5,121 bases of DNA from the IMG/VR virus record IMGVR_UViG_2671180669_000005, positions 1 to 5,121 of that record; one strand, given 5' to 3'. The notes under the pieces are model-generated. The model was not told where the DNA came from. It saw nothing but the letters and a program-made list of their open reading frames with translations, and searched no databases. Made by a program: the position numbers and the translations under genes. The stretch comes from a virus. Taxonomy: Duplodnaviria > Heunggongvirae > Uroviricota > Caudoviricetes. Of the stretch, positions 391 through 4,783 are shown in pieces. Position 1 is the first letter of the stretch, and the number at the start of each line of letters is the position of its first letter.

Positions 391-726
391 ATGAAGTGGA
401 TTGTGATTGATACAGTTATCCAGCCATCATGCGGAATATCTTTTTCAGTCATATGGAGTAAAATAAAATTAATAATCTGGTATCAATCGGATGCTTTCTT
501 ACCTCCTGAAAGTATATTTACACTGACTCACACAGGCATCATGCTCAATAACAAAGTGCTACCTGTAACCATTTACAACGTAGTACCATTCAATAAAACA
601 TTCTGGAATTTAATCAAAAACAGCCAGGAATGCCCTACAAATACAGATAACGTATTGAATGAATGCTTTAATAACCGTTGCACTCTGCAAATATGTCCTT
701 ATGGGCTAAAACAACAAAGTCCATAA
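391..726 (+). CDS. Hypothetical protein, AT-rich moron-like ORF (111 aa, 7 Cys, rich in I/N/K)
   Basis: Complete ORF with AGGA 6 nt upstream of the ATG (381-384). GC content is visibly lower than the flanking phage genes. It is opposite in orientation to the late operon and lies between the tRNA block and the downstream late genes, the slot where lambdoid phages carry morons. No recognisable motif; could still be a chance ORF in AT-rich DNA. Confidence 0.35.
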
Positions 727-746
727 GGAGTTTACTCACATCTGAC

Positions 747-782
747 AAAATCAATATAAACAGCCCCTCCGGAGAGGGGCTG
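747..782 (-). terminator. Rho-independent terminator candidate (9-bp perfect stem CAGCCCCTC / GAGGGGCTG, 4-nt loop)
   Basis: Perfect inverted repeat at 761-769 / 774-782 with loop CGGA. On the minus strand the hairpin is followed by TTTATATTGATTTTG (U-rich). On the plus strand the hairpin is followed by GAGAGTGG, so it is oriented for minus-strand transcripts, i.e. the tRNA cluster. Confidence 0.5.
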
Positions 783-1017
783 GAGAGTGGCGCTATGTGC
801 CATTGCATGGTGCCGGGTGCCTCCCGGTGAATTCAGTACCAGCACCTGAATCCGCGATTATCCCATATACCTACTCGCTGATTGCCCCTCCGCACAGGGG
901 GATTCACCATGCCAGTTTCTTTTAACAAACTCCCCGCAAACCAGACAACAGTCAACCGCCTGAATTGTGAGACATTTAAAAAAAAGGCCCACAAAAGCGA
1001 GCCAGGGAAAATAAGTG

Positions 1018-1094
1018 TGGCGCGTTGTACTGGATTCGAACCAGTGACCGATTGCTTAGAAGGCAATTGCTCTGTCCGGCTGAGCTAACAACGC
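1018..1094 (-). tRNA. tRNA-Arg (anticodon TCT, reads AGA/AGG)
   Basis: Reverse complement folds as a cloverleaf: acceptor GCGTTGT/ACAACGC, D-stem GCTC/GAGC, anticodon stem ATTGC/GCAAT with loop CTTCTAA, T-arm ACTGG-TTCGAAT-CCAGT, discriminator G, encoded CCA. 77 nt. Comparable to the rare-codon tRNA triplet (ileZ-argN-argO) between Q and stx in 933W-type phages (from memory). Confidence 0.85.
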
Positions 1095-1107
1095 ATGATG
1101 CAGATAA

Positions 1108-1184
1108 TGGACCGCCATCGGGGACTTGAACCCCGCGCAACCAGCTTCGAAGGCTGGCGCTCTTTCCTGATGAGCTAATGGCGG
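1108..1184 (-). tRNA. tRNA-Arg (anticodon TCG, reads CGA)
   Basis: Reverse complement: acceptor CCGCCAT/ATGGCGG (7 perfect pairs), D-stem GCTC/GAGC, anticodon stem CCAGC/GCTGG with loop CTTCGAA, T-arm CGGGG-TTCAAGT-CCCCG, discriminator T, encoded CCA. 77 nt. C1 at the 5' end is unusual but all four stems are perfect. Confidence 0.75.
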
Positions 1185-1191
1185 TATGTGA

Positions 1192-1267
1192 TGGTGGCCC
1201 TTGCTGGATTTGAACCAGCGACCTGGCGATTATGAGTCGCTCGCTCTCACCACTGAGCTAAAGGGCC
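1192..1267 (-). tRNA. tRNA with CAT anticodon (Ile2-lysidine type or Met; ileZ-like)
   Basis: Reverse complement: acceptor GGCCCTT/AAGGGCC, D-arm TAGCTCAGTGGTGAGAGC, anticodon loop CTCATAA, T-arm GCTGG-TTCAAAT-CCAGC, discriminator A, encoded CCA. 76 nt. Ile versus Met cannot be decided from sequence alone. Confidence 0.8.
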
Positions 1268-1316: not shown

Positions 1317-2366
1317 TCAAACGATTAAATCCTGAACTTCCCTGACTGTCTGCTCAAAACGTCCGGTCTCCAGTTCAACGCCAATCGCACGACGCCCGAG
1401 CGCCAGTGCCGCTTTTACCGTTGAACCTGAGCCCATAAAAAAATCTGCAACCAGGTCTCCCGGACGACTGCTTGCGCTGATTATCTGCTGCAGCATTTCT
1501 GCCGGTTTTTCGCACGGATGTTTCCCGGGATAGAACTGCACCGGTTTATGTGTCCACACATCCGTGTACGGCACCTGCGCCGTCACACCAAAATACCGCC
1601 GCAGATGCTTATATTCACTCTGCAGCTCCACATACTGCCGGTTCAGTGACGTATACGTATCCACCAGCTGGTGGTGGGGCTTTTCCAGTTCACCGCGCTG
1701 ATGTTTCTCTTCTGCCACCCGGGCAAACAGCGACTGTAATTTCAGATAATCGCTTTCGTTCGGTAGCTGCCACTGACTGGCACTGAACCAGTGCGACACC
1801 ATGTTTTTCTTTCCTGTGGCATCTGCAATCTGTTTTGCCGTTATCCCCAGGGCAGCTCGCGCATCACGAAAGTAAGAAATCAGCGGGGCCATCACATGCT
1901 GTTTCAGTGCACTGCCCTTCGCCGCATACCCGGCATCTTTCGGACGATACGGCCCCTGATAATGTTCCGCGAACAGAATGCGCTCTGTGGCGGGGAAATA
2001 CGCCCGCAGGCTTTCCTTGTTGCATCCGTTCCAGCGTCCGGACGGCTTCGCCCAGATAATATGGTTCAGCACACTGAAGCGTTCACGCATCATGATTTCG
2101 ATATCAGATGCCAGGCGATGACCACAGAACAGGTAAAGACTTCCGGCAGGTTTCAGCACCCGCCAGAACTGCGCCAGACACTGGTCCAGCCACTTCAGGT
2201 AATCATCGTCGCCCTTCCACTGGTTATCCCAGCCCTCAGGCTTCACTTTAAAGTACGGCGGGTCCGTGACTATCAGGTCAACAGAATTTTCGGGTAACGA
2301 CCGGATAAATTCCAGGCAGTCGGCGTTGATTAACTCACAACTGGATATTTTTACAGTATTAAGCAT
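1317..2366 (-). CDS. Beta-class N6-adenine (possibly N4-cytosine) DNA methyltransferase, CcrM-like fold, no cognate restriction gene in the window (apparent orphan)
   Basis: 349-aa ORF. N-terminal motif IV SVDLIVTDPPY with the preceding LINADCLEFIRSLPENSVDL closely resembling the CcrM N-terminus (from memory). HPCEKP is the beta-class HPxxKP motif. C-terminal AdoMet motif I DLVADFFMGSGST. Motif order IV then I defines the beta class. The central segment LGITAKQIADATGKKNMVSHW looks like a helix-turn-helix insertion. No Shine-Dalgarno is evident upstream of the ATG. Confidence 0.9.
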   Translation of the reverse strand: MLNTVKISSCELINADCLEFIRSLPENSVDLIVTDPPYFKVKPEGWDNQWKGDDDYLKWLDQCLAQFWRVLKPAGSLYLFCGHRLASDIEIMMRERFSVLNHIIWAKPSGRWNGCNKESLRAYFPATERILFAEHYQGPYRPKDAGYAAKGSALKQHVMAPLISYFRDARAALGITAKQIADATGKKNMVSHWFSASQWQLPNESDYLKLQSLFARVAEEKHQRGELEKPHHQLVDTYTSLNRQYVELQSEYKHLRRYFGVTAQVPYTDVWTHKPVQFYPGKHPCEKPAEMLQQIISASSRPGDLVADFFMGSGSTVKAALALGRRAIGVELETGRFEQTVREVQDLIV

Positions 2367-2458
2367 GGATCATTAAGCCTGTCTCTGATAGGCTCATTCT
2401 GCTTTTGCGCAAAGCAGTGGGCCTGAGGTTTGCTTGTGAACCCAACGCATGAGCAGAT

Positions 2459-2489
2459 GGCTGGTGGGTGCCCCTAACACCCACCAGCC
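2459..2489 (-). other. 12-bp perfect inverted repeat / stem-loop in the methyltransferase leader (copy 1)
   Basis: GGCTGGTGGGTG (2459-2470), 7-nt spacer, CACCCACCAGCC (2478-2489). No U-tract on either strand, so it is not an intrinsic terminator. Candidate RNA structure or a dimeric-protein operator. Confidence 0.5.
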
Positions 2490-2502
2490 GCCCATTTACC
2501 AC

Positions 2503-2530
2503 AAATAAAAAAGCCTTCACTGCGGAAGGC
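2503..2530 (-). terminator. Rho-independent terminator at the 3' end of the winged-helix gene (copy 1)
   Basis: Minus strand reads GCCTTC-CGCAGT-GAAGGC followed by TTTTTTATTTG. The gene's TGA stop lies inside the hairpin. Confidence 0.6.
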
Positions 2531-2714
2531 GTCTGTAACAACCGAACTGATAGTCTGCCAGACCCGCCATAACCAGCTGGGTCAGTATTAACTGGCAGCG
2601 TTCGCGTGAAAGGTAAGTATTCTGCGCTATCTCCCCGACTGTCGCCGGTTCGGTAACGCTTAATTCATTAAACACCACTCTGGCGGTTTCTGTCATATCC
2701 TGCTGTTTTAGCAT
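2517..2714 (-). CDS. Small winged-helix / HTH protein (65 aa), PapI/FaeA-like architecture (tentative), copy 1
   Basis: Encodes the same 65 aa as copy 2 (MLKQQDMTETARVVFNELSVTEPATVGEIAQNTYLSRERCQLILTQLVMAGLADYQFGCYRRLPQ). Start placed at ATG 2714..2712, which has AGGGA about 8 nt upstream. The supplied 94-aa ORF (2517..2801) is an upstream frame extension created by a 2-nt indel and is probably not translated. Confidence 0.55.
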   Translation of the reverse strand: MLKQQDMTETARVVFNELSVTEPATVGEIAQNTYLSRERCQLILTQLVMAGLADYQFGCYRRLPQ

Positions 2715-2836
2715 GTCTTTTTCCCTTTTCCGGTTAACGTGACACACCAATAACTCTTGTCGAAAAAGCCAGCAAGCTGAAAGACAGGTATTCACCGCCA
2801 CCAGCGCGTTTACTGTACTGACGCGATTTCAGTCAT

Positions 2837-2860
2837 AAAAAACCCGCCAGGCGGCGGGGT
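2837..2860 (-). terminator. tR'-like intrinsic terminator (copy 1)
   Basis: Minus strand reads CCCGCC-GCCT-GGCGGG followed by TTTTTT. About 40 nt downstream of the AACGAT pause element of PR' copy 1. Confidence 0.6.
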
Positions 2861-2895
2861 GTAAAAAATCTTCTAACGTCAGGCATAAAACGCCC

Positions 2896-2935
2896 ATCGT
2901 TAGAGCAAATTTACCACAGATTCGGGAAAAATCAA
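2896..2935 (-). promoter_or_regulatory. PR'-like late promoter with qut-type pause element (copy 1)
   Basis: Minus strand: -35 TTGATT (2935..2930), 16-nt spacer, extended -10 TGgTAAATT (-10 at 2913..2908), then tgctct AACGATGGGCG (AACGAT at 2901..2896). The -10 TAAATT and downstream AACGATGGG match the lambda PR'/qut arrangement as I recall it. Confidence 0.55.
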
Positions 2936-2940
2936 CAACA

Positions 2941-3359
2941 CTATCGCGTTACCCTCTTTAACTGCCGCTCCGCCCATGCCTCTTCAATGTCAAACCGAAC
3001 CACCAACGTATCGTAAAAGCGTTTCACTGATTTTTTCCACGTATCAAGCGTGATAGCACTCGTCACTTTGCATATGGCATTAAATGCCTCCGTTGATGGC
3101 AGCCTTTCACAGCCACGACCACCACAACGCTGGCAGTCTCTGATAACAGGCATACCACGTTTTACCGACTCTTCACGATGAATGGCGACACCACGCCCAC
3201 GGCAATCCTTACAGGCGGTGGAAACCTCACCCTTTCCGCCACACTCCGGACAGGCAACTTTTACCACCTCCCGATTTTTTTTCCATTCTTCCCAGTAAGA
3301 CGGATACACACCTTTCGTACACTTTGCCCATACCGGCGGCTTACCATCCGGATACTGGA
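2941..3359 (-). pseudogene. Q' : 3' fragment of an antiterminator Q gene (about 139 codons), lacking the N-terminal half
   Basis: Frame ends at TAG 2943..2941 and aligns to Q residues from QYPDGKPPVW to the C-terminal VTR, with about 14 aa substitutions concentrated in the last ~50 residues. It begins at the duplication junction with no ATG (the supplied ORF starts at a TTG at 3363). The duplicated methyltransferase ATG (3389..3387) reads into it out of frame, giving a 42-aa chimeric ORF (3261..3389). Confidence 0.65.
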
Positions 3360-3481
3360 ACAACTGGATATTTTTACAGTATTAAGCATGGATCATTAAG
3401 CCTGTCTCTGATAGGCTCATTCTGCTTTTGCGCAAAGCAGTGGGCCTGAGGTTTGCTTGTGAACCCAACGCATGAGCAGAT

Positions 3482-3512
3482 GGCTGGTGGGTGCCCCTAA
3501 CACCCACCAGCC
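3482..3512 (-). other. 12-bp perfect inverted repeat / stem-loop (copy 2)
   Basis: Identical to 2459-2489: GGCTGGTGGGTG, 7-nt spacer, CACCCACCAGCC. Confidence 0.5.
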
Positions 3513-3525
3513 GCCCATTTACCAC

Positions 3526-3553
3526 AAATAAAAAAGCCTTCACTGCGGAAGGC
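3526..3553 (-). terminator. Rho-independent terminator at the 3' end of the winged-helix gene (copy 2)
   Basis: Same hairpin GCCTTC-CGCAGT-GAAGGC plus TTTTTTATTTG on the minus strand; the stop codon is in the loop. Confidence 0.6.
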
Positions 3554-3737
3554 GTCTGTAACAACCGAACTGATAGTCTGCCAGACCCGCCATAACCAGC
3601 TGGGTCAGTATTAACTGGCAGCGTTCGCGTGAAAGGTAAGTATTCTGCGCTATCTCCCCGACTGTCGCCGGTTCGGTAACGCTTAATTCATTAAACACCA
3701 CTCTGGCGGTTTCTGTCATATCCTGCTGTTTTAGCAT
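3540..3737 (-). CDS. Small winged-helix / HTH protein (65 aa), PapI/FaeA-like architecture (tentative), copy 2
   Basis: ORF with AAGGA 6 nt upstream of the ATG. Predicted helix - turn (EPATVGEIAQNT) - recognition helix (RERCQLILTQLVMAGL), consistent with a small winged-helix regulator. The EPxT...IA...LS...LLT...G spacing resembles PapI/FaeA as I recall it. Protein is identical in both copies while the upstream non-coding DNA carries an indel. Confidence 0.6.
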   Translation of the reverse strand: MLKQQDMTETARVVFNELSVTEPATVGEIAQNTYLSRERCQLILTQLVMAGLADYQFGCYRRLPQ

Positions 3738-3857
3738 GTCTTTTCCTTTTCCGGTTAACGTGACACACCAATAACTCTTGTCGAAAAAGCCAGCAAGCTG
3801 AAAGACAGGTATTCACCGCCACCAGCGCGTTTACTGTACTGACGCGATTTCAGTCAT

Positions 3858-3880
3858 AAAAAACCCGCTCGGCGGCGGGT
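3858..3880 (-). terminator. tR'-like intrinsic terminator (copy 2)
   Basis: Minus strand reads CCCGC-CGCCGA-GCGGG followed by TTTTTT. Shorter stem than copy 1. Confidence 0.55.
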
Positions 3881-3916
3881 TGTAGAAACTCTTCTAACGT
3901 CAGGCATAAAACGCCC

Positions 3917-3956
3917 ATCGTTATGACGAATTTACCACAGATTCCGGAAAAATCAA
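3917..3956 (-). promoter_or_regulatory. PR'-like late promoter with qut-type pause element, immediately downstream of Q (copy 2)
   Basis: Minus strand: -35 TTGATT (3956..3951), 16-nt spacer, TGgTAAATT (-10 at 3934..3929), cgtcat AACGATGGGCG (AACGAT at 3922..3917). Starts 6 nt after the Q stop codon. Confidence 0.6.
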
Positions 3957-3961
3957 CCTTG

Positions 3962-4783
3962 TTACCTAGTTACCTTTTTTAACTGCCGCTCAGCCCATGC
4001 TTCTTCAATATCAAACCGGGTCACCAGCGCATCATAAAATTTCTTAACTGTTTTTTCCCATGACGCGCGTGTTATCTGGTTTGTCACCTCGCATATAGCA
4101 TTAAATGCCTCCGTTGATGGTAGTCTTTCATAGCCACGACCACCACAACGCTGGCAGTCTCTGATAACAGGCATACCACGTTTTACCGACTCTTCACGAT
4201 GAATGGCGACACCACGCCCACGGCAATCCTTACAGGCGGTGGAAACCTCACCCTTTCCGCCACACTCCGGACAGGCAACTTTTACCACCTCCCTGACTTT
4301 TTTCCATTCTTCCCAGTAAGACGGATACACACCTTTCGTACACTTTGCCCATACCGGCGGCTTACCATCCGGATACTGGATCTTGTTTGTAAAAACCTCG
4401 CTTTCAATAAATTTTTTTCCGTGACAGCAGGGGCACTGTTTTTTGCTCGCCGCGCTACGGGCATAATCTTCAAACGCATACGAAGCCATAATACGCATCA
4501 CTGCCGGTTTTATTTCTGCCGGGAGTTTTCTTAACGCCGCCACGCGATCACACCGACTGAGTGCATATTCTGTCAGCAATTCTGTTGCCCGCTCTCTGTC
4601 ATTCATACTAATGCCCATTTTCCCAAGGAACGCAGAAAACCCCATCTCAGCCCGATTCTGTGTCATGCCCTGCGCGGCCATCACATCAGTGATACTCAGC
4701 GCATCTTTCGACGTTGAGGCCGATGCATCAGTCAGGCCGGGGGATTTTGGGGAGTAGTATTTCGGTAAATCTTCCAGTTTCAT
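3962..4783 (-). CDS. Q: Late-gene antiterminator Q, lambda-Q family, with an enlarged zinc-binding region (four CxxCxGxG-type motifs)
   Basis: 273 aa. Shares with lambda Q (recalled sequence) SPKSP near the N-terminus, DVMAA.GM, YA..DY.RSAA, CxxCHG, C.RCxGxGY.R.PS, W..TVK..YDALV and a C-terminal VTR. Contains CPCCHGKK, CPECGGKG, CKDCRGRG and CQRCGGRG. Start ATG overlaps the rusA stop (ATGA). Followed directly by a PR'/qut-like promoter. Confidence 0.85.
   Translation of the reverse strand: MKLEDLPKYYSPKSPGLTDASASTSKDALSITDVMAAQGMTQNRAEMGFSAFLGKMGISMNDRERATELLTEYALSRCDRVAALRKLPAEIKPAVMRIMASYAFEDYARSAASKKQCPCCHGKKFIESEVFTNKIQYPDGKPPVWAKCTKGVYPSYWEEWKKVREVVKVACPECGGKGEVSTACKDCRGRGVAIHREESVKRGMPVIRDCQRCGGRGYERLPSTEAFNAICEVTNQITRASWEKTVKKFYDALVTRFDIEEAWAERQLKKVTR

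What the first reader, a model, noticed from the sequence alone, without database searches (positions are those of the whole stretch)
3858..3956. Lambda-like PR' promoter with AACGATGGG pause element and short tR'-terminated transcript, present twice
Immediately after the Q stop the minus strand reads TTGATT-N16-TGgTAAATT-cgtcat-AACGATGGGCG, then an intrinsic terminator about 40 nt further on. The -10 TAAATT and the AACGAT -10-like pause inducer match the lambda PR'/qut layout as I recall it, so this is the expected Q engagement site. It would produce a ~65-nt 6S-like RNA without Q and read through into the winged-helix gene, methyltransferase and tRNAs with Q. The second copy (2837-2935) differs between -10 and AACGAT (tgctct versus cgtcat) and in the terminator stem, so the two modules may differ in pause or termination efficiency.
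Basis: partly seen in the sequence, partly recalled or inferred. Interest (0 to 1): 0.4.

Follow-up and report, generated by a model that had tools for sequence, protein, structure and literature searches.

The report
Lambda-type late promoter, present twice
This is the ordinary late-gene switch of a lambda-like prophage (a promoter, a built-in polymerase pause signal and a terminator right after the Q antiterminator gene), and it appears twice only because two natural variants of the module were joined head to tail in this one sequence.

Summary
On the minus strand, 5 nt after the Q stop codon, lie TTGATT (3956-3951), a 16-nt spacer ending in TGG, TAAATT (3934-3929), 6 nt, then AACGATGGG (3922-3914). 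A GC-rich hairpin plus T-run follows (3881-3858), which predicts a 65-nt RNA. A second copy lies at 2935-2837.

The -10 hexamer, the 6-nt spacing and AACGATGGG are identical to real lambda PR'. The upstream gene belongs to the Q-lambda family (PF03589, 32% identity to lambda Q).

In 336 related loci the element AA-N-N-AT-GGG sits about 6 nt after the -10 in nearly every subfamily, although the promoters differ. Short terminated RNAs of 52-68 nt are the rule.

Among 50 close haplotypes, the -35, most of the spacer, A-11/T-7, +2, +5 to +9 and the terminator stem are invariant or nearly so. The discriminator, +3/+4 and the terminator loop vary.

The "second copy" is part of a 1021/1023-bp tandem hybrid. 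It carries a 3' Q fragment and a second small ORF. The two units match two natural single-copy alleles, and the junction was found nowhere else.

Verdict: an ordinary lambda-type Q-loading cassette, and a new member of a known kind. Function is inferred, not measured.

The parts
3962..4783 (-). Q antiterminator gene, 273 aa, Q-lambda family, with an enlarged zinc-ribbon 'arm'
   Evidence: PF03589 E 2.5e-53. 32% identity to lambda Q, E 4e-41, with a 60-70 aa insertion (68 gap columns) rich in CxxC motifs. PDB 7ubm Q-lambda E 4.9e-41.
3951..3956 (-). PR' copy 1, -35 hexamer TTGATT
   Evidence: Sequence. No substitution in 50 haplotypes; the only differences are 2-3 deletion rows.
3935..3950 (-). 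16-nt spacer, candidate Q-binding element. Its last three nt are TGG (extended -10 TG at 3937-3936).
   Evidence: Nearly invariant apart from a G/C polymorphism at -23. In lambda the QBE lies partly between -35 and -10 (PMC6266700). Binding was not tested.
3929..3934 (-). PR' copy 1, -10 hexamer TAAATT
   Evidence: Identical to the lambda PR' -10. A-11 and T-7 are invariant.
3914..3922 (-). Predicted +1 (A3922) and sigma70-dependent pause element AACGAT plus GGG
   Evidence: Identical to lambda +1 to +9. Across 54 unique sequences A2, A5, T6 and G8 are invariant.
3905..3908 (-). TATG at +15 to +18. It matches the scrunched-pause consensus T-N-Y-G, so the predicted paused RNA is 17 nt.
   Evidence: The consensus is T+14 N+15 Y+16 G+17 in lambda (PMC9191641). 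Here it is offset by 1 nt. T15 and T17 are invariant.
3858..3922 (-). Predicted 65-nt PR'-tR' transcript, copy 1: 5' hairpin, A/U-rich linker, terminator hairpin
   Evidence: Fold -21.4 kcal/mol, z -2.5. Length distribution in the family.
3858..3881 (-). tR' copy 1: stem AACCCGC/GCGGGTT, 6-nt loop, T6
   Evidence: Terminator scan. Stem conserved and loop variable.
3540..3737 (-). 65-aa ORF, copy 1 (possible HTH protein), followed by its own terminator at 3553-3536
   Evidence: ORF list. TrmB weak hit. phrog_331, unknown function. Terminator.
3360..4380 (-). Tandem unit 1 (1021 nt): 3' two-thirds of Q, PR'-tR', 65-aa ORF, structured spacer, first ~30 nt of the methylase gene
   Evidence: Repeat families D1 and D2. 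Alignment. The overlapping block 4783-3371 is 99.9% identical to single-copy locus L021.
2337..3359 (-). Tandem unit 2 (1023 nt). The junction at 3360/3359 joins methylase codon ~10 to mid-Q.
   Evidence: 99.3% identical to single-copy L004 and L097. Junction absent elsewhere.
2941..3359 (-). Q' fragment: the C-terminal ~139 codons of a different Q allele, with no credible start. Probably a remnant.
   Evidence: ORF 2941-3363 starts at TTG. PF03589 partial hit. [quoted passage not shown]
2930..2935 (-). PR' copy 2, -35 hexamer TTGATT
2908..2916 (-). PR' copy 2, TGG plus -10 TAAATT
2893..2901 (-). Copy 2 predicted +1 (A2901) and AACGATGGG
   Evidence: +1 to +33 are identical to copy 1.
2837..2858 (-). 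tR' copy 2: stem CCCGCC/GGCGGG, 4-nt loop, T6
2517..2714 (-). 65-aa ORF, copy 2
   Evidence: Identical to copy 1.
1317..2366 (-). N6/N4 DNA methyltransferase gene, in the read-through unit
   Evidence: PF01555 E 2.3e-44.
1018..1267 (-). tRNA cluster (CAT, TCG and TCT anticodons), in the read-through unit
   Evidence: Annotated Ile/Arg/Arg in a RefSeq relative.

Best explanation
Each copy is a lambda-type Q-dependent late regulatory cassette.

How it most likely works:
1. A constitutive sigma70 promoter (TTGATT, 16 nt, TGg-TAAATT) starts transcription at the first A of AACGAT.
2. Sigma70 region 2 re-binds the non-template AACGAT-GGG as a -10-like element. RNA polymerase scrunches and pauses with a roughly 17-nt RNA at TATG.
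3. Without Q, the polymerase escapes and stops at the hairpin plus T6, giving a 65-nt RNA.
4. With Q, the 273-aa Q-lambda-family protein binds a site in or near the -35/-10 spacer and loads onto the paused complex. The polymerase becomes termination-resistant.
5. It then reads through tR' and five further intrinsic terminators. This takes it into the 65-aa ORF, the methylase, the tRNAs and, presumably, the lysis genes beyond the window's left end.

What is shown: sequence identity to lambda, Q homology, family-wide conservation and the terminator structures.

What is inferred: the start site, the pause, Q binding and read-through.

The duplication is a private tandem join of two natural alleles, most likely from illegitimate recombination between two related prophages. 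The downstream Q' fragment is probably inert. PR'-2 probably still works, because its -35, spacer (one change), -10 and +1 to +33 are intact.
For: - Identity with lambda PR' at the -10, the 6-nt spacing and +1 to +9. The published role of AACGAT and GGG is in PMC4005639, and the cassette logic is in PMC9388147.
- Q is PF03589, the Q-lambda family. The N-terminal 113 aa and C-terminal 92 aa align to Q-lambda structures.
- The motif is far above chance.
- In loci whose Q is only 39-47% identical to the window's Q, the -35 and -10 differ, but N6-AACGATGGG and a short terminator persist. The same holds for lambda-Q phages.
- A2, A5, T6 and G8 are invariant in 54 unique initial transcribed regions.
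- The within-type variation pattern fits function.
- TNYG lies at +15 to +18.
- Predicted RNA lengths are 62-66 nt in the window type and 52-68 nt in the QuuQ type.
- Six co-oriented intrinsic terminators lie downstream of PR'-1.
- The same cassette heads the late or stx2 operon in Stx2_EH1910, and the lysis operon in E. coli 203740.
Against: - There are no transcript, pause or Q-binding data for this Q type in anything I could search.
- The core hexamers match only 8 of 12 positions, and the scan did not call a promoter.
- The spacer sequence is unrelated to lambda's, so the Q-binding site is unknown.
- This Q has a 60-70 aa extra zinc-ribbon segment, so the geometry of DNA binding may differ from lambda Q.
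- Many relatives are cryptic prophages. Some have PR' deleted, so a given copy need not be active.
Confidence: 0.85

Rival explanations
1. The 65-nt terminated transcript is itself a functional trans-acting small RNA, an analogue of StxS or lambda 6S RNA. On this view the conservation of +10 to +40 reflects RNA function, not only Q loading. This would add to the cassette role, not replace it.
For: - +12 to +33 are almost invariant within the type, beyond what the pause element needs.
- A 5' hairpin (nt 2-4 with 24-26, and 7-12 with 16-21), an A/U-rich linker and a terminator with a U-tail resemble typical sRNA architecture.
- 90.9% of cells are paired across 38 sequences, against 32-46% when the partners are slid.
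- StxS sets a precedent for a PR'-derived sRNA (PMC7547250).
Against: - There are zero compensatory changes in the 5' hairpin. The shuffle control is no better than chance, and variants at +3/+4 break pairs without compensation.
- Conservation through about +28 could instead reflect DNA-level scrunching and escape. Lambda shows Q-dependent arrest at +24 to +28.
- No Rfam family matches. The only hit is a sub-threshold Trp_leader match at 21.8 bits.
- No target-like complementarity of 9 nt or more was found in the window.
Confidence: 0.2
2. The duplication, and hence the 'present twice', is an assembly or chimeric-read artefact. The real genome would carry two separate prophages, each with one cassette.
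For: - The junction is unique. It is absent from 5,426 complete E. coli genomes, from 97 related loci, from IMG/VR and from metagenome contigs.
- The two units are 99.9% and 99.3% identical to two different natural single-copy alleles. That is what a chimera of two co-resident prophages would look like.
Against: - The join is non-homologous (methylase codon ~10 to mid-Q), with only 1 nt of overlap and a nearby TCCAGT near-repeat. Graph assemblers switch paths at long shared k-mers, not at such a site.
- Illegitimate recombination between lambdoid prophages is common.
- I cannot see reads or coverage.
Confidence: 0.25
3. The elements are relics in a decaying prophage. The promoter and Q are no longer functional, and the hairpin simply terminates transcription of the Q gene.
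For: - The locus is rearranged and carries a truncated Q'.
- Relatives exist in which PR' has been deleted between TAAC repeats.
- The same cassette sits in the cryptic Qin prophage of K-12.
Against: - The full-length Q ORF is intact and about 100% identical to Q in other loci.
- Functionally critical positions are invariant while neighbouring positions vary freely. This indicates purifying selection across the population.
- The same cassette drives stx2 in a complete Stx2a phage genome.
Confidence: 0.1

Closest known systems
Bacteriophage lambda PR'-qut-tR' (Q-lambda loading site and 6S RNA)
   Same: - The Q gene belongs to the same protein family and lies immediately upstream.
- The -10 TAAATT is identical.
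- The 6-nt discriminator has the same length.
- AACGAT at +1 to +6 and GGG at +7 to +9 are identical.
- A T-N-Y-G pause motif follows.
- An intrinsic terminator precedes the late genes.
   Different: - The -35 is TTGATT with a 16-nt spacer and a true extended -10 TG. Lambda has TTGACT with a 17-nt spacer.
- The spacer, where the QBE would lie, is unrelated in sequence.
- The T-N-Y-G motif is 1 nt further downstream (+15 to +18).
- The terminated RNA is 65 nt, not 194 nt.
- Q is 273 aa with a 60-70 aa extra zinc-ribbon segment in the arm.
- The first downstream genes are a 65-aa ORF, a methylase and tRNAs.
QuuQ (YdfT) cassette of the cryptic Qin prophage, E. coli K-12
   Same: - Q is of the same family and also has the enlarged arm (about 40% identity).
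- N6-AACGATGGGC is followed by TTTGTATAC, where the window has GTTTTATGC.
- CGTT lies at +24 to +27.
- A roughly 63-nt terminated RNA is predicted, at NC_000913.3 1,642,422 to 1,642,360 on the minus strand.
   Different: - The promoter differs: TTGCAT, 17 nt, TAAAAT.
- The spacer and the region upstream differ.
- The terminator sequence differs.
- No RNA feature is annotated there in the K-12 RefSeq record.
StxS (EcOnc15), the PR'-derived sRNA of Stx1/Stx2a phages Sp15 and Sp5
   Same: A short RNA made by constitutive PR' transcription ending at tR' in the lysogen, upstream of the late and toxin genes.
   Different: - StxS is a 258-nt transcript processed by RNase E to 74 nt. It binds Hfq, and in the StxS paper its presence tracks only some Q lineages (PMC7547250).
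- I found no evidence of homology and no functional evidence here.

Membership tests
Q-lambda-type late regulatory cassette (Q, PR', QBE, SDPE, tR') | [quoted passage not shown] | tested here: met
   PF03589 E 2.5e-53. BLASTP to lambda Q gives 32% identity, E 4e-41. PDB 7ubm E 4.9e-41. The family definition is from PMC9388147.
Q-lambda-type late regulatory cassette (Q, PR', QBE, SDPE, tR') | A sigma70 promoter directly downstream of Q | tested here: inconclusive
   TTGATT-16-TAAATT with an extended -10 TG. The -10 is identical to lambda's, and the -35 and -10 key bases are invariant. However, only 8 of 12 hexamer positions match, and the scan did not call a promoter. Promoter activity cannot be tested here.
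Q-lambda-type late regulatory cassette (Q, PR', QBE, SDPE, tR') | A sigma-dependent pause element: a -10-like hexamer at +1 to +6 with A2 and T6, followed by a GGG discriminator-like sequence | tested here: met
   AACGATGGG is identical to lambda. Two exact hits against 0.01 expected. A2, A5, T6 and G8 are invariant across 54 unique sequences.
Q-lambda-type late regulatory cassette (Q, PR', QBE, SDPE, tR') | The scrunched-pause consensus T-N-Y-G at about +14 to +17 | tested here: met
   TATG at +15 to +18, offset by 1 nt from lambda. The consensus is from PMC9191641. T15 and T17 are invariant.
Q-lambda-type late regulatory cassette (Q, PR', QBE, SDPE, tR') | A Q-binding element in the promoter that is bound by the cognate Q | not testable with these tools
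   The spacer from -28 to -13 is nearly invariant, which is consistent with a binding site. Its sequence is unrelated to lambda's, and no binding data exist.
Q-lambda-type late regulatory cassette (Q, PR', QBE, SDPE, tR') | An intrinsic terminator between the pause site and the late genes | tested here: met
   Hairpins plus T6 at 3881-3858 and 2858-2837. An equivalent terminator 52-68 nt from +1 is present in nearly all of the non-lambda-type loci (5 of 104 lacked a call) and in about half of the lambda-Q loci; in the rest of those it lies beyond the range scanned.
Q-lambda-type late regulatory cassette (Q, PR', QBE, SDPE, tR') | Q-dependent, processive read-through of terminators | not testable with these tools
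   Inferred only. Six co-oriented terminators lie downstream of PR'-1, and lysis genes lie downstream in a single-copy relative.
PR'-derived regulatory sRNA (StxS or 6S-like) | A stable, abundant short RNA in lysogens that binds a chaperone and has targets | not testable with these tools
   No Rfam match above threshold. The 5' hairpin has pairing potential but no covariation. No local complementarity was found.

The most novel reading that the evidence does not exclude
The roughly 65-nt RNAs are members of a very widespread, unrecognised family of prophage PR'-derived small RNAs. The family would be defined by a 5' hairpin whose 5' arm is the pause element itself, an A/U-rich linker and the tR' hairpin. 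It would be made constitutively by lysogens from Q-lambda-family cassettes, which are present in more than half of complete E. coli genomes and include Qin in K-12. These RNAs would have a regulatory role of their own, and the tandem arrangement here would give two isoforms.
Probability: 0.15. Interest if true: 0.5.

Novelty: new member of a known kind. Interest (0 to 1): 0.2.

Why it matters
The practical value is for annotation. The motif '-10, N6, AA-N-N-AT-GGG, then a terminator within about 65 nt, right after a PF03589 gene' marks the late promoter in a very common class of E. coli and enterobacterial prophages. That class includes some Stx2a phages, where this promoter controls toxin output.

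Natural variation at +3/+4 of the pause element (AATGAT, AATAAT, AACAAT and others) and promoter-deletion variants could contribute to differences in late-gene or toxin expression between strains.

Mechanistically nothing here is unexpected. The tandem copy is a single-sequence curiosity.

Tried and rejected
- **Rfam scan of the window.** Nothing matched the short RNA except a sub-threshold Trp_leader hit (21.8 bits, E 0.53). I take this as generic attenuator-like similarity.
- **RNAalifold on 38 diverse short RNAs.** MAFFT misaligned the terminators and the result was meaningless.
- **Named 5' hairpin on the same alignment.** Pairing potential is high but there are 0 compensatory changes, so the structure is not demonstrated. 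The shuffle test gave 83% against 43%, which is weak and not phylogenetically independent.
- **Literature searches.** I searched for quuQ, ydfT and the motif string, and checked the RNET-seq sigma70-pausing paper and its supplements. None gave data on this cassette. PMC415771 (Q DNA-binding regions) is not held.
- **Search for the duplication junction.** It was found in none of the complete E. coli genomes, IMG/VR, metagenome contigs or the related loci.
- **Loose scan for other tandem PR' modules in 340 loci.** The hits were mostly chance matches. Only L260 looks real.
- **Search for antisense targets of the 65-nt RNA within the window.** Nothing of 9 nt or more was found.
- **Structure prediction of Q.** Considered and not run. 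It would not test the promoter claim.

Full report
**Context**

The minus strand of the window encodes the head of a lambdoid late operon:
- rusA at 5118-4780.
- A 273-aa Q gene at 4783-3962.
- A 65-aa ORF.
- An N6/N4 DNA methyltransferase at 2366-1317.
- Three tRNAs at 1267-1018.
- An STnc100-like RNA.

A single-copy version of the same arrangement continues into holin and endolysin genes in E. coli 203740. In phage Stx2_EH1910 it continues into stx2AB.

**Observation**

Copy 1 reads TAA(stop)-caagg-TTGATT-tttccggaatctgTGG-TAAATT-cgtcat-AACGATGGG. The -35 lies at 3956-3951, the -10 at 3934-3929, and the first A of AACGAT at 3922. The hairpin AACCCGC-cgccga-GCGGGTT plus T-run lies at 3881-3858.

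Copy 2 has the same layout at 2935-2837.

TAAATT-N6-AACGATGGG occurs twice, against 0.01 expected.

The generic promoter scan missed both sites, because the hexamers match only 8 of 12 positions. The case for a promoter therefore rests on homology and conservation, not on consensus score.

**Comparison with lambda**

I fetched lambda. Its PR' reads TTGACT-17-TAAATT-tgactc-AACGATGGG. The -10, the 6-nt gap and +1 to +9 are therefore identical.

The literature places AACGAT at +1 to +6, with a GGG discriminator-like sequence (PMC4005639). It defines a scrunched-pause consensus T+14 N+15 Y+16 G+17 (PMC9191641). The window has TATG at +15 to +18, a perfect match shifted by one base. This predicts a 17-nt paused RNA.

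**The Q protein**

The Q protein is PF03589, which Yin et al. define as the Q-lambda family. It is 32% identical to lambda Q (E 4e-41).

Its residues 1-113 and 182-273 align to Q-lambda residues 1-113 and 116-207. Between them lies a 60-70 aa insertion (68 gap columns) with extra CxxC pairs. The insertion sits at the position of Q-lambda's zinc-ribbon "arm" (residues 114-152).

**Family survey**

I collected 336 loci encoding Q proteins of four subfamilies: window-type, QuuQ/Qin-type, lambda-type and an Entomohabitans-type. I then compared the 170 nt after each Q stop codon, which gave 152 unique sequences.

- Promoter hexamers and spacers differ between subfamilies. For example, the QuuQ type has TTGCAT-17-TAAAAT.
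- Even so, a 6-nt gap (occasionally 7) followed by [A/G]A-N-N-AT-GGG is present in essentially all loci.
- In 54 unique initial transcribed regions, A2, A5, T6 and G8 are invariant. A1, G7 and G9 are at least 90% conserved.
- A GC-rich hairpin plus T-run follows. It predicts RNAs of 62-66 nt (window type), 52-68 nt (QuuQ type) and 55-59 nt (many phages with lambda's own Q). Lambda's 194-nt 6S RNA is the outlier.
- Terminator sequences differ between lineages but keep the hairpin form.

**Variation within the window type**

Among 50 haplotypes, these positions are invariant or nearly so:
- The -35 hexamer.
- The spacer, except -23.
- A-11 and T-7.
- +2 and +5 to +9.
- +12 to +33.
- The terminator stem.

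These positions vary freely:
- The 5 nt upstream of the -35.
- The discriminator (-6 to -2).
- +3, +4 and +11.
- The terminator loop.

Retaining A2 and T6 while +3 and +4 vary (AATGAT, AATAAT, AACAAT, AAAGAT, AACTAT) is exactly what a -10-like element recognised by sigma region 2 predicts.

**Mechanism**

Each copy is a Q-loading site made of a constitutive promoter, a sigma70-dependent pause and tR'. Q-modified polymerase would read through six co-oriented intrinsic terminators into the downstream genes.

No experimental data for this Q type were found. The start site, the pause, Q binding and read-through therefore remain inferences.

**The second copy**

It is part of a tandem repeat:
- Unit 1 is 3360-4380 (1021 nt).
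- Unit 2 is 2337-3359 (1023 nt).

Each unit carries the 3' part of Q, the PR'-tR' module, the 65-aa ORF with its terminator, a structured 156-nt spacer and the first ~30 nt of the methylase gene.

The junction at 3360/3359 fuses methylase codon ~10 to mid-Q. There is at most 1 nt of overlap, and a TCCAGT near-repeat lies close by.

The units are identical except for a roughly 260-bp patch and two small differences outside it (a 4-nt cluster in the Q part and a 2-bp indel before the 65-aa ORF start). The patch covers the last ~45 Q codons (the helix-turn-helix region), the sequence upstream of the -35, the discriminator and the terminator. Within that patch, the -35, the spacer (one change), the -10 and +1 to +33 are conserved.

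Copy 1's block is 99.9% identical to the single-copy locus L021. Copy 2's block is 99.3% identical to single-copy loci L004 (E. albertii) and L097. Both divergent patches are 100% identical to those alleles. So this is a join of two natural alleles, not a duplication followed by divergence.

The junction is absent from 5,426 complete E. coli genomes, from IMG/VR, from metagenome contigs and from all related loci. It is either a private recombination event or a chimera, and I cannot tell which without reads.

The Q' fragment lacks the N-terminal nozzle-forming region and half of the helical body. It has no credible start codon, so it is probably inert.

**Side issue: a 5' hairpin**

The predicted RNA folds so that ACG (+2 to +4) pairs with CGU (+24 to +26), around an inner stem. 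A CGTT 3' arm is present in all subfamilies, at +20 to +23 in lambda.

On 38 sequences, 90.9% of cells pair, against 32-46% for slid partners. However, no pair shows a compensatory change, and the shuffle control gives no signal. Sequence conservation at the DNA level explains this equally well, because Q-dependent scrunching extends to +24 to +28 in lambda.

The idea that the RNA is a regulatory sRNA like StxS (PMC7547250) is open but unsupported.

**Verdict**

This is a correct reading of an ordinary element. It is a new, experimentally uncharacterised member of the lambda-type Q cassette family. The tandem copy is unique to this sequence and of uncertain reality.

Noticed in passing
window 752-941 (-): Strong Rfam match to the sRNA STnc100 (132 bits, E 5.6e-30). 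It lies just downstream of the tRNA cluster and ends in its own intrinsic terminator at 782-761.
   Followed up: no
window 3385-3540 (-) and its duplicate 2362-2517 (-): A 156-nt non-coding spacer between the 65-aa ORF and the methylase start. It folds to -63 kcal/mol (z -3.2) with a 14-bp perfect hairpin. Its 5' motif TGTGGnAAATGGGCGGCTGGTGGGTGTT follows tR' directly in the distant loci L263 and L014. Weak sub-threshold P26 hits lie on the opposite strand.
   Followed up: partly
loci L020, L055, L063, L066 (just after the Q stop): Natural variants in which the whole PR' (-35 to -1) is missing. The deletion runs between two TAAC repeats (the Q stop TAAC and the TAAC of ca-TAAC-gatggg). It leaves Q fused directly to the pause-element remnant and tR'.
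   Followed up: partly
related loci, +3/+4 and +11 of the initial transcribed region: Among otherwise 95-100% identical cassettes, the pause element varies at its two non-critical positions (AATGAT, AATAAT, AACAAT, AAAGAT, AACTAT, GATGAT), and +11 is G, T or C. This could tune pause strength and late or Stx expression.
   Followed up: partly
lambda-Q loci L179-L258, downstream of AACGATGG: Phages with essentially identical lambda Q and promoter carry at least four unrelated sequences immediately after AACGATGG. Most have 55-59-nt terminators in place of lambda's 194-nt 6S region, so the pause element is a mosaic recombination boundary.
   Followed up: partly
L260 2225-2335 (+): An independent case of two tandem PR'-like modules. 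198 nt after the first, a second one reads TTGCCT-17-TAGCTT-6-AAGTATGGGG followed by a terminator. There is no Q fragment between them, and the spacer resembles lambda's (aaattttggg).
   Followed up: partly
window 3962-4783 (-), residues ~114-181: The Q protein carries a 60-70 aa insertion with additional CxxC pairs, at the position of Q-lambda's single zinc-ribbon arm. Pfam matches PF03589 in two stretches. QuuQ-type proteins share this, so most E. coli Q-lambda-family proteins may have a double zinc-ribbon arm.
   Followed up: no
window 1192-1267 (-): ARAGORN calls this tRNA-Met (CAT). The homologous gene is annotated tRNA-Ile in a RefSeq relative, which suggests a lysidine-type tRNA-Ile2.
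   Followed up: no
window 391-726 (+): An AT-rich 111-aa ORF on the opposite strand, at the position where Stx phages carry stx. It has no Pfam hit and matches phrog_4407 of unknown function. It is probably a moron.
   Followed up: no
NC_000913.3 about 1,642,360-1,642,460 (-) (L340 4361-4460): E. coli K-12's cryptic Qin prophage has the same type of cassette after ydfT/quuQ: TTGCAT-17-TAAAAT-6-AACGATGGGC followed by a terminator. The predicted RNA is 63 nt, and no RNA feature is annotated there in RefSeq.
   Followed up: partly
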